From Callorhinchus milii (lineage: Eukaryota), in contig NW_024704743.1 of the NCBI RefSeq assembly GCF_018977255.1, positions 17,734,001 through 17,798,000 on the forward strand: a DNA stretch of 64,000 bases. The letters run 5' to 3'. Shown piece by piece: positions 52,479 through 53,356 of this stretch. The notes under the pieces are model-generated. The model was not told where the DNA came from. It saw nothing but the letters and a program-made list of their open reading frames with translations, and did not search any database. Positions within the stretch are counted from its first letter, which is position 1, and the number at the start of each line of letters is the position of its first letter. The position numbers and the translations under genes were made by a program.

Positions 52479-52842
52479 ATGCAGTCTCTAGGTGGCAGGT
52501 TGTACCTGAGGCTGATGTGGATTGTGATGGTGGTGATGGCTGAGAACAGAAACGGAGATCCCATGAGCCTGGGGGAGATCGAGACTCAGTGCTGGGAGAG
52601 CTCCTCCCTCACCCTGGTTCAGATGAAGAAGCCTCCACTGGCCGAGACAGTCAGTGGGCTCTGGGATTTCATGATCTACCTGAAACTCTCCGACAAACCC
52701 AAACACGGCGCTCTGTTCCTCGACCTGGCTCAAGTCTTCTGGGATACTTATGTGGACTGTGTGCTGTCACGATCCCATGGGCTGGGAAGGAGGCAGATCA
52801 TAGCCAGATATCCATTAAAGTATCCCAAGTACACAGCAGCAG
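52479..52842 (+). CDS. FAM237B: FAM237-family neurosecretory protein precursor, coding exon 1 (FAM237B/NPGM by position)
   Basis: Exon acceptor gttgctag| with the exon starting at 52462, ATG at 52479. Encodes a predicted signal peptide [21 protein letters not shown], then QCWESSS...WDFMIYLK...[30 protein letters not shown] (amidation plus dibasic site). Donor G|gtaagc. Lies between GTPBP10 and CFAP69. Confidence 0.9.
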
Positions 52843-53116
52843 GTAAGCATTGTTACACGCCGCACTGGACTCTCCAAATATATATTTAAGATGTATTCTG
52901 ACATTTATATATGGAATAAACGTCAAATATCACGTCCTTTTAATATGTGTCTATGTTCAGCATCATTTCATTTGATAAAGTCACACAAGCAAACATTTTT
53001 ACTGTGGGCTTATACTCTTGTATGAAATAGACATTGTAGTTTGGGCTGTGTTTACCTGTGAGTGCCATCCATCAACTAACTGTTCTTACCCACTTAACCC
53101 TTTGCTCTGATGTGTG

Positions 53117-53256
53117 AACTGCTGTGCGCAATTGGCTGCCGCTTTTCGTCCACAAAATATACAGTCAATTCACTTTACAGTGTATTCTGTGAAGCGCTTT
53201 GAGACGTCTAGAAGACGTGAAAAGCGCTATATCAAATGCAAGGATTATTATTATTA
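53117..53256 (+). mobile_element. SINE 3' half in the FAM237B intron
   Basis: ctgtgcgcaattggctgcc...atatcaaatgcaaggattattattatt. Confidence 0.85.
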
Positions 53257-53318
53257 AAACATGCAAAAGTAAGAGCTTCTGAGTTTCTTGTCCTTTTCTG
53301 ATATCTCCTTTCTTGCAG

Positions 53319-53356
53319 GGTTGACACGTTCAAGTGACAAGAAATTAAGGATTTAA
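53319..53356 (+). CDS. FAM237B: FAM237B coding exon 2
   Basis: ctcctttcttgcag|GG TTG ACA CGT TCA AGT GAC AAG AAA TTA AGG ATT TAA encodes (G)LTRSSDKKLRI*. Phase matches; total 133 aa. AATAAA at 53699 and 54231. Confidence 0.8.

What the first reader, a model, noticed from the sequence alone, without database searches (positions are those of the whole stretch)
52479..53356. Neuropeptide precursor at the NPGM (FAM237B) locus encodes an NPGL-type Gly-Leu-amide peptide
Seen: a predicted signal peptide of about 21 aa, a predicted mature peptide of about 81 aa with two Cys, ending ...[10 protein letters not shown] followed by GRR. Known: FAM237A/NPGL ends in GL-NH2 and FAM237B/NPGM in GM-NH2, and FAM237B lies between GTPBP10 and CFAP69. 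The core here ([33 protein letters not shown]) resembles recalled mammalian FAM237A far more than FAM237B, while its position and short C-terminal tail are FAM237B-like. Inference: this lineage keeps the ancestral GL-amide state at the B locus, so the GM terminus and divergent core of tetrapod NPGM would be derived. This matters for the evolution of this feeding/lipid-regulating peptide family.
Basis: partly seen in the sequence, partly recalled or inferred. Interest (0 to 1): 0.7.

Follow-up and report, generated by a model that had tools for sequence, protein, structure and literature searches.

The report
Elephant shark FAM237B (NPGM) gene
This is the already catalogued elephant shark copy of a known appetite-related brain peptide gene; it keeps the family's old Leu-amide ending, as nearly all fish copies do, so it is ordinary and mainly shows that the name 'GM' fits only some land vertebrates.

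Summary
The gene is real and already on record: a 133-aa precursor identical to a Callorhinchus milii protein (NCBI 'FAM237A', UniRef 'FAM237B'). It lies between GTPBP10 and CFAP69 like human FAM237B, the species has a separate FAM237A, and two trees keep it outside the A clade, so it is the B orthologue (trees alone are not decisive: AU p 0.215). It ends His-Gly-Leu-Gly-Arg-Arg. Leu is the ancestral state (both lamprey genes, 8 of 8 cartilaginous and 14 of 15 ray-finned B proteins). Nothing is special to this lineage, and 'tetrapod GM with a divergent core' does not hold: axolotl, a newt, a caecilian and a lizard keep Leu, many frogs and crocodile have Val, and the core diverged mainly in therian mammals (46-52% identity against 62-75% for other tetrapod B). 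Published text already places FAM237B in fishes; a 2026 cross-vertebrate review could not be read. What remains is a small, testable point: weak GPR83 agonism of human FAM237B may be a recent mammalian change.

The parts
52462..52842 (+). Main coding exon (acceptor AG before 52462, ATG 52479, donor GT at 52843)
   Evidence: contig X1 record 1 covers 52462-52838 with 0 differences
52479..52541 (+). Predicted signal peptide, residues 1-21 (inferred; no SignalP run)
   Evidence: hydropathy peak at residues 8-21; helix 5-22 in the model; Ala21 aligns with Ala24 of goose B, and chicken NPGM has a 24-aa signal peptide (PMC5768754)
52542..52784 (+). Predicted mature peptide, residues 22-102 (81 aa), Cys38 at 52590 and Cys94 at 52758, ending His-Gly-Leu (Leu codon CTG 52782-52784)
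   Evidence: both Cys, His100 and Gly101 invariant in 34 of 34 aligned family members
52785..52793 (+). Gly-Arg-Arg amidation and dibasic cleavage signal
   Evidence: Gly103 and Arg105 invariant in the 34-sequence alignment
52843..53318 (+). 476-nt GT-AG intron holding a very high-copy repeat around 53146-53279
   Evidence: joint table and depth table
53319..53356 (+). [quoted passage not shown]
18435..37818 (-). GTPBP10 exons (neighbour, head to head with FAM237B); its first coding exon was not located
   Evidence: 7oi6_y GTP-binding protein 10, E 8e-24 and 9e-20; Pfam GTP1_OBG and MMR_HSR1
60795..61680 (-). CFAP69 3' exons (neighbour, tail to tail with FAM237B)
   Evidence: 9ijj_A2 CFAP69 residues 757-823, E 2.6e-5 and 850-891, E 1.9e-5

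Best explanation
The gene is the elephant shark orthologue of FAM237B (NPGM). It encodes a neuropeptide precursor: the signal peptide is removed after Ala21, Cys38 and Cys94 form a disulfide, a prohormone convertase cuts at Arg104-Arg105, and Gly103 donates the amide, releasing an 81-aa three-helix peptide ending His-Gly-Leu-NH2 that most likely activates GPR83 in the brain. Shown here: sequence, exon structure, neighbours, family membership. Inferred from human, rat and chicken work: processing, receptor, hypothalamic expression and a role in feeding and fat storage. The Leu-amide and the A-like core are plain retention of the pre-duplication state in a slowly evolving lineage; the last residue of B changes often among Leu, Met, Val and Ile, and the B core sped up in therian mammals.
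For: Gene order CFAP69, FAM237B, GTPBP10 in human (PMC6834745) matches the window. C. milii has a separate, longer FAM237A (P0131, UniRef A0A4W3H0Q1) and Amblyraja has both types. A forms a starred clade without the window protein in the core tree (98/93) and the whole-precursor tree (99/96); nearest rows are shark B-type proteins. At 11 columns that separate A from bony-vertebrate B the protein is B-like at 5, A-like at 2, other at 4. Terminal residue of 59 chosen B proteins: Leu 28, Met 19, Val 11, Ile 1, at least 11 changes; A proteins: 167 Leu, 1 Met, 3 without the motif, after moving three shark B proteins back to B. The model has helices 36-49, 58-70, 74-99 and a free C-terminus, as described for human FAM237A, where amide, disulfide and His-Gly-Leu are needed for GPR83 binding (10.1101/2022.09.27.509696).
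Against: The B clade including cartilaginous fishes is not starred (98/77 and 78/71), and the AU test does not reject grouping the window protein with A (p 0.215). Profile scores do not separate the two: 153.5 bits for A, 154.3 for B. The shark, bowfin, sturgeon, eel and lungfish proteins named 'FAM237A-like' were assigned to B by tree and length, not by their loci. The locus of C. milii A beside ADAM23 was not seen (no genome held). No peptide, tissue or receptor data exist here for this species; a 2026 paper still calls GPR83 a candidate receptor (PMC13538515).
Confidence: 0.9

Rival explanations
1. The B-locus gene of holocephalans was partly overwritten by FAM237A (gene conversion), which made its core and terminus A-like.
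For: Two residues are A-like where shark and bony-fish B differ: Pro52 and Gly77; the AU test does not exclude grouping with A.
Against: The protein is only 66% identical to its own A paralogue over the core but 74-85% to elasmobranch B; C. milii A has Ile, not Gly, at the column of Gly77; Leu-amide is shared by all cartilaginous B, so needs no conversion.
Confidence: 0.03
2. The gene is a true FAM237A (as NCBI names it) or a third, ancestral-type paralogue sitting at the B locus.
For: NCBI name 'protein FAM237A'; equal A and B profile scores; cartilaginous B-type proteins form an open fork at the base of the whole-precursor tree.
Against: B-locus neighbours on both sides; a separate A in the same species; short tail (133 aa against about 172-187 for full-length A); UniRef names it member B.
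Confidence: 0.04
3. One reading: one change to Met and a divergent core arose at the base of tetrapods, and this lineage is a notable holdout.
For: Met at the tetrapod root costs only one more step (12 against 11), so a tetrapod origin of Met with reversals is not excluded; Met is common in frogs, turtle, birds and mammals.
Against: Leu in axolotl, Lissotriton, caecilian and Hemicordylus; Val in 9 of 22 amphibians, crocodile and Phrynocephalus; amphibian and bird cores are as close to the window protein as A is; Leu is the rule in fishes.
Confidence: 0.15

Closest known systems
FAM237B / neurosecretory protein GM (NPGM) of chicken, rat, human
   Same: Locus between CFAP69 and GTPBP10, short C-terminal propeptide, signal peptide, two conserved Cys, Gly plus dibasic site, B-type residues at 5 of 11 separating columns.
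   Different: Ends Leu-amide, not Met-amide; lacks the third Cys of mammalian NPGM (PMC4625114); core only 46-52% identical to therian B.
FAM237A / neurosecretory protein GL (NPGL)
   Same: His-Gly-Leu-amide terminus, two Cys, 65-72% core identity to 18 of 19 A proteins compared (54% to guppy A).
   Different: Different locus, shorter tail, outside the A clade in both trees; C. milii has its own A (66% core identity).
C. milii record XP_042188284.1 / UniRef100_V9L9P7
   Same: Identical 133-aa protein.
   Different: NCBI calls it FAM237A; synteny says that name is wrong and UniRef's 'member B' is right.

Membership tests
FAM237 (NPGL/NPGM) family | Sequence homology of the mature core | tested here: met
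   E 2e-76 to 3.3e-30 for the 120 listed hits. The Pfam copy held gave no family for it.
FAM237 (NPGL/NPGM) family | Two conserved Cys in the mature peptide | tested here: met
   Cys38 and Cys94, invariant in 34 of 34; the bond itself was not shown.
FAM237 (NPGL/NPGM) family | Gly plus dibasic site after His-Gly-X | tested here: met
   HGL-GRR at residues 100-105.
FAM237 (NPGL/NPGM) family | Cleavable signal peptide | tested here: inconclusive
   Hydropathy and alignment fit cleavage after Ala21; no signal-peptide predictor was available.
FAM237 (NPGL/NPGM) family | Secreted amidated peptide, hypothalamic expression, GPR83 agonism | not testable with these tools
   Needs MS, tissue data and receptor assays.
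FAM237B orthologues | Locus between CFAP69 and GTPBP10 | tested here: met
   human order in PMC6834745, same three genes together in cattle (PMC11758604).
FAM237B orthologues | Groups with B, outside A, in a tree | tested here: inconclusive
   Best trees agree but B support is 98/77 and 78/71 and AU p is 0.215.
FAM237B orthologues | A separate FAM237A exists in the same species | tested here: met
   P0131, C. milii member A, inside the A clade with Amblyraja A; its locus was not seen.
NPGM as named (Gly-Met-amide) | C-terminal Gly-Met-NH2 | tested here: not met
   Ends Gly-Leu; only 19 of 59 chosen B proteins end in Met, so the feature does not define the orthologue group.
FAM237A orthologues | Membership of the A clade and long C-terminal propeptide | tested here: not met
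   Outside the starred A clade; 28-residue tail after GRR.

The most novel reading that the evidence does not exclude
Cartilaginous-fish FAM237B is the living peptide closest to the pre-duplication ligand and is as potent at GPR83 as FAM237A; the 10- to 100-fold weaker agonism of human FAM237B is a late, therian change caused by the fast-evolving core rather than by the Leu-to-Met swap, which arose more than once and is nearly neutral. No paper found in the held library states this.
Probability: 0.4. Interest if true: 0.4.

Novelty: already known. Interest (0 to 1): 0.22.

Why it matters
It corrects a database name (NCBI's 'FAM237A' and many fish 'FAM237A-like' records look like B orthologues) and shows that the GL/GM labels do not track orthology. 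For the small field working on these appetite and fat-storage peptides it offers natural variants to ask why human FAM237B binds GPR83 about 20-fold more weakly than FAM237A (10.1101/2023.05.04.539513). It is not a new system.

Tried and rejected
No genome is held for the window, so the ADAM23 locus of A and any third paralogue could not be checked. Pfam gave no family for the protein or four relatives; the PDB sequence search gave one chance hit at E 0.79. A/B profile scoring does not classify cartilaginous B proteins: three of eight fell on the A side by up to 5.5 bits. The AU test was not decisive. No RNA holder listed as RNA on record; runs X2 and X3 gave only short low-depth pieces and no splice joint. 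The simple splice-site scan found few exons, and the first GTPBP10 coding exon and CLDN12 were not located. Search of earlier findings returned nothing. Gene conversion from A was considered and rejected (see rivals). Literature searches found no paper on chondrichthyan FAM237 or on the terminal residue across vertebrates, but PMIDs 37689599, 42288123 and 41765162 are not held and Fig. S1 of the FAM237B preprint, an alignment from fish to mammals, could not be seen; these may already show Leu-ending fish B. No complex with GPR83 was modelled: no receptor sequence was at hand.

Full report
Observation. The window holds an ATG at 52479, an open frame to a GT donor at 52843, a 476-nt intron and a last exon whose TAA ends at 53356. 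The spliced frame is 133 aa and equals database protein P0002 letter for letter, a Callorhinchus milii record named 'protein FAM237A' by NCBI and 'member B' by UniRef. It has a hydrophobic stretch at residues 8-21, two Cys (38, 94) and HGL-GRR at 100-105; residues 22-102 are 81 aa. One 634-nt contig of run X1 (RNA by the tool's guess) joins the two exons across GT..AG with no mismatch, while run X11 runs through as DNA; its first 159 nt lie outside 50600-54600, which points to an upstream non-coding exon. This is one run of the four laid.

Locus. Stop-free stretches on the minus strand at 37624-37818 and 18435-18647 match GTP-binding protein 10 (E 8e-24 and 9e-20), and stretches at 61444-61680 and 60795-60959 match CFAP69 (E 2.6e-5 and 1.9e-5). 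A human gene list gives the order STEAP2, CFAP69, FAM237B, GTPBP10, CLDN12 (PMC6834745, passage); cattle has the same three genes together (PMC11758604, passages). The species also has a separate 172-aa member A (P0131), and the skate Amblyraja has both a long A and a short B-type protein. No genome was held, so the position of A beside ADAM23 was not seen; several A hits carry ADAM23 fusion names, which fits that recalled neighbourhood.

Trees. Core tree, 63 rows, 78 columns, terminal residue removed: A is a clade (98/93, starred) that holds C. milii A and not the window protein; B with the window protein has 98/77. Whole-precursor tree, 43 of the 63 rows (20 long or redundant rows dropped): A 99/96, B 78/71, with cartilaginous B-type proteins in an open fork. 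Forcing the window protein into A lowers the log-likelihood by 7.4 but is not rejected (p-AU 0.215), and A and B profiles score it equally (153.5 and 154.3 bits). So sequence alone is weak, and orthology rests on synteny plus the second paralogue. Fish and lungfish proteins named 'FAM237A-like' were taken as B on tree position and short tail; their loci were not checked.

Terminal residue. Both lamprey genes end HGL. Of 59 B proteins chosen by hand from those held, 28 end in Leu, 19 in Met, 11 in Val and 1 in Ile: cartilaginous fishes 8 of 8 Leu; ray-finned fishes 14 of 15 Leu and one Ile; lungfish Leu; amphibians 3 Leu, 10 Met, 9 Val of 22; sauropsids 1 Leu, 2 Val, 4 Met of 7; therians 5 Met and 1 Leu of 6, the Leu being a gappy lemur model. 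Parsimony on a species tree taken from general knowledge needs 11 changes; Leu at the jawed-vertebrate root costs 11 against 13 for Met, at the tetrapod root 11 against 12, and the amniote node is a tie. In contrast A is almost fixed: of 309 proteins scored, 7 lamprey rows were set aside, and after moving three shark B proteins back, 171 A-type rows gave 167 Leu, 1 Met (a guppy model) and 3 without the motif; isoforms are counted more than once. The window codon is CTG; Leu, Met and Val are each one first-position change apart (genetic code, established knowledge).

Core divergence. But it is 74-85% identical to elasmobranch B, 66-75% to amphibian B, 65-69% to turtle, crocodile and bird B, 62-65% to squamate B, 52% to marsupial B and 66% to its own A. 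Within species, A-B identity is 65-72% in cartilaginous fishes, bowfin, sturgeon and amphibians, 62% in crocodile and goose, 52% in opossum and 43-45% in eutherian pairs; lungfish is also low at 42%. The divergence is therefore mainly therian, with separate accelerations in lungfish and otophysan fishes. At 11 columns separating A from bony-vertebrate B the window protein is B-like at 5, A-like at 2 and other at 4.

Mechanism. Inferred from orthologues: signal removal after Ala21, a Cys38-Cys94 disulfide, convertase cleavage at Arg-Arg and amidation from Gly103. Rat NPGM is secreted from CHO cells and carries one disulfide (PMC4625114, passages). For human FAM237A the amide, the disulfide and His78, Gly79, Leu80 are each needed for GPR83 binding (10.1101/2022.09.27.509696, passages). 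Human FAM237B binds about 20-fold more weakly (10.1101/2023.05.04.539513, parts 1 and 2 of 3 read); in the text read, no Leu/Met swap was tested. The AlphaFold model (mean pLDDT 73.8, pTM 0.54) has three core helices and a free C-terminus, as that paper describes. FAM237A/B is expressed in lamprey hypothalamus (PMC10555824, passage). GPR83 is still called a candidate receptor (PMC13538515, passages). None of these steps was shown for the elephant shark.

Novelty. The protein is on record. [quoted passage not shown] S1, which I could not see; since 14 of 15 ray-finned B proteins end in Leu, that figure very likely shows Leu (inference). A 2026 review comparing NPGL and NPGM across vertebrates (PMID 42288123, title seen in a reference list) is not held. 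Nine searches found no paper on chondrichthyan FAM237 or on the history of the last residue; the library lacks most subscription journals, where this field mostly publishes. Other papers were seen as passages only: PMC5768754, PMC11039390, PMC13717404.

Verdict. Observation confirmed; interpretation partly supported. An annotated orthologue of a known family with an ancestral residue that is the rule in fishes. Interest 0.22. The side lead on a salamander pheromone precursor (noticed in passing) may deserve more attention than the finding itself.

Noticed in passing
Proteins P0167 and P0311 (Plethodon cinereus 'PMF precursor' variants 6 and 1; AHL39278.1, AHL39273.1): These courtship-pheromone precursors begin with a FAM237A-like signal peptide and two-Cys core (BLASTP to axolotl FAM237A E 1e-48) that lacks the HGL-GRR end and runs through a basic site into a three-finger domain (residues about 106-176). 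This looks like a neuropeptide exon fused to a pheromone gene, or a chimeric cDNA; two diverged variants favour a real gene. FAM237 is not named in two related papers searched; the source paper (PMID 25179396) was not read.
   Followed up: partly
Proteins P0182 (Pseudonaja textilis), P0303 (Laticauda laticaudata), P0180 (Tachyglossus aculeatus): B-type proteins of two elapid snakes are strongly diverged and end Ser-Val before Gly-Lys-Arg with no His-Gly motif; echidna FAM237B lacks the amidation signal. Possible loss or change of function.
   Followed up: no
Protein P0155 (Poecilia reticulata member A): An A-type model ending His-Gly-Met, the reverse exception to the GL/GM naming.
   Followed up: no
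   Followed up: no
window 45194-45201 (+): TATA-like box upstream of the large repeat block, a candidate promoter for the unplaced 159-nt 5' exon sequence of the X1 contig; untested.
   Followed up: no
window 38568-42128 and 45345-50435: Long minisatellite and microsatellite arrays (41-, 25- and 22-nt units among them) between GTPBP10 and FAM237B.
   Followed up: no
window 21762-22547 (+), 31734-32633 (+), 62678-63451 (-): Open stretches that resemble LINE reverse-transcriptase fragments (resemblance recalled, not tested).
   Followed up: no
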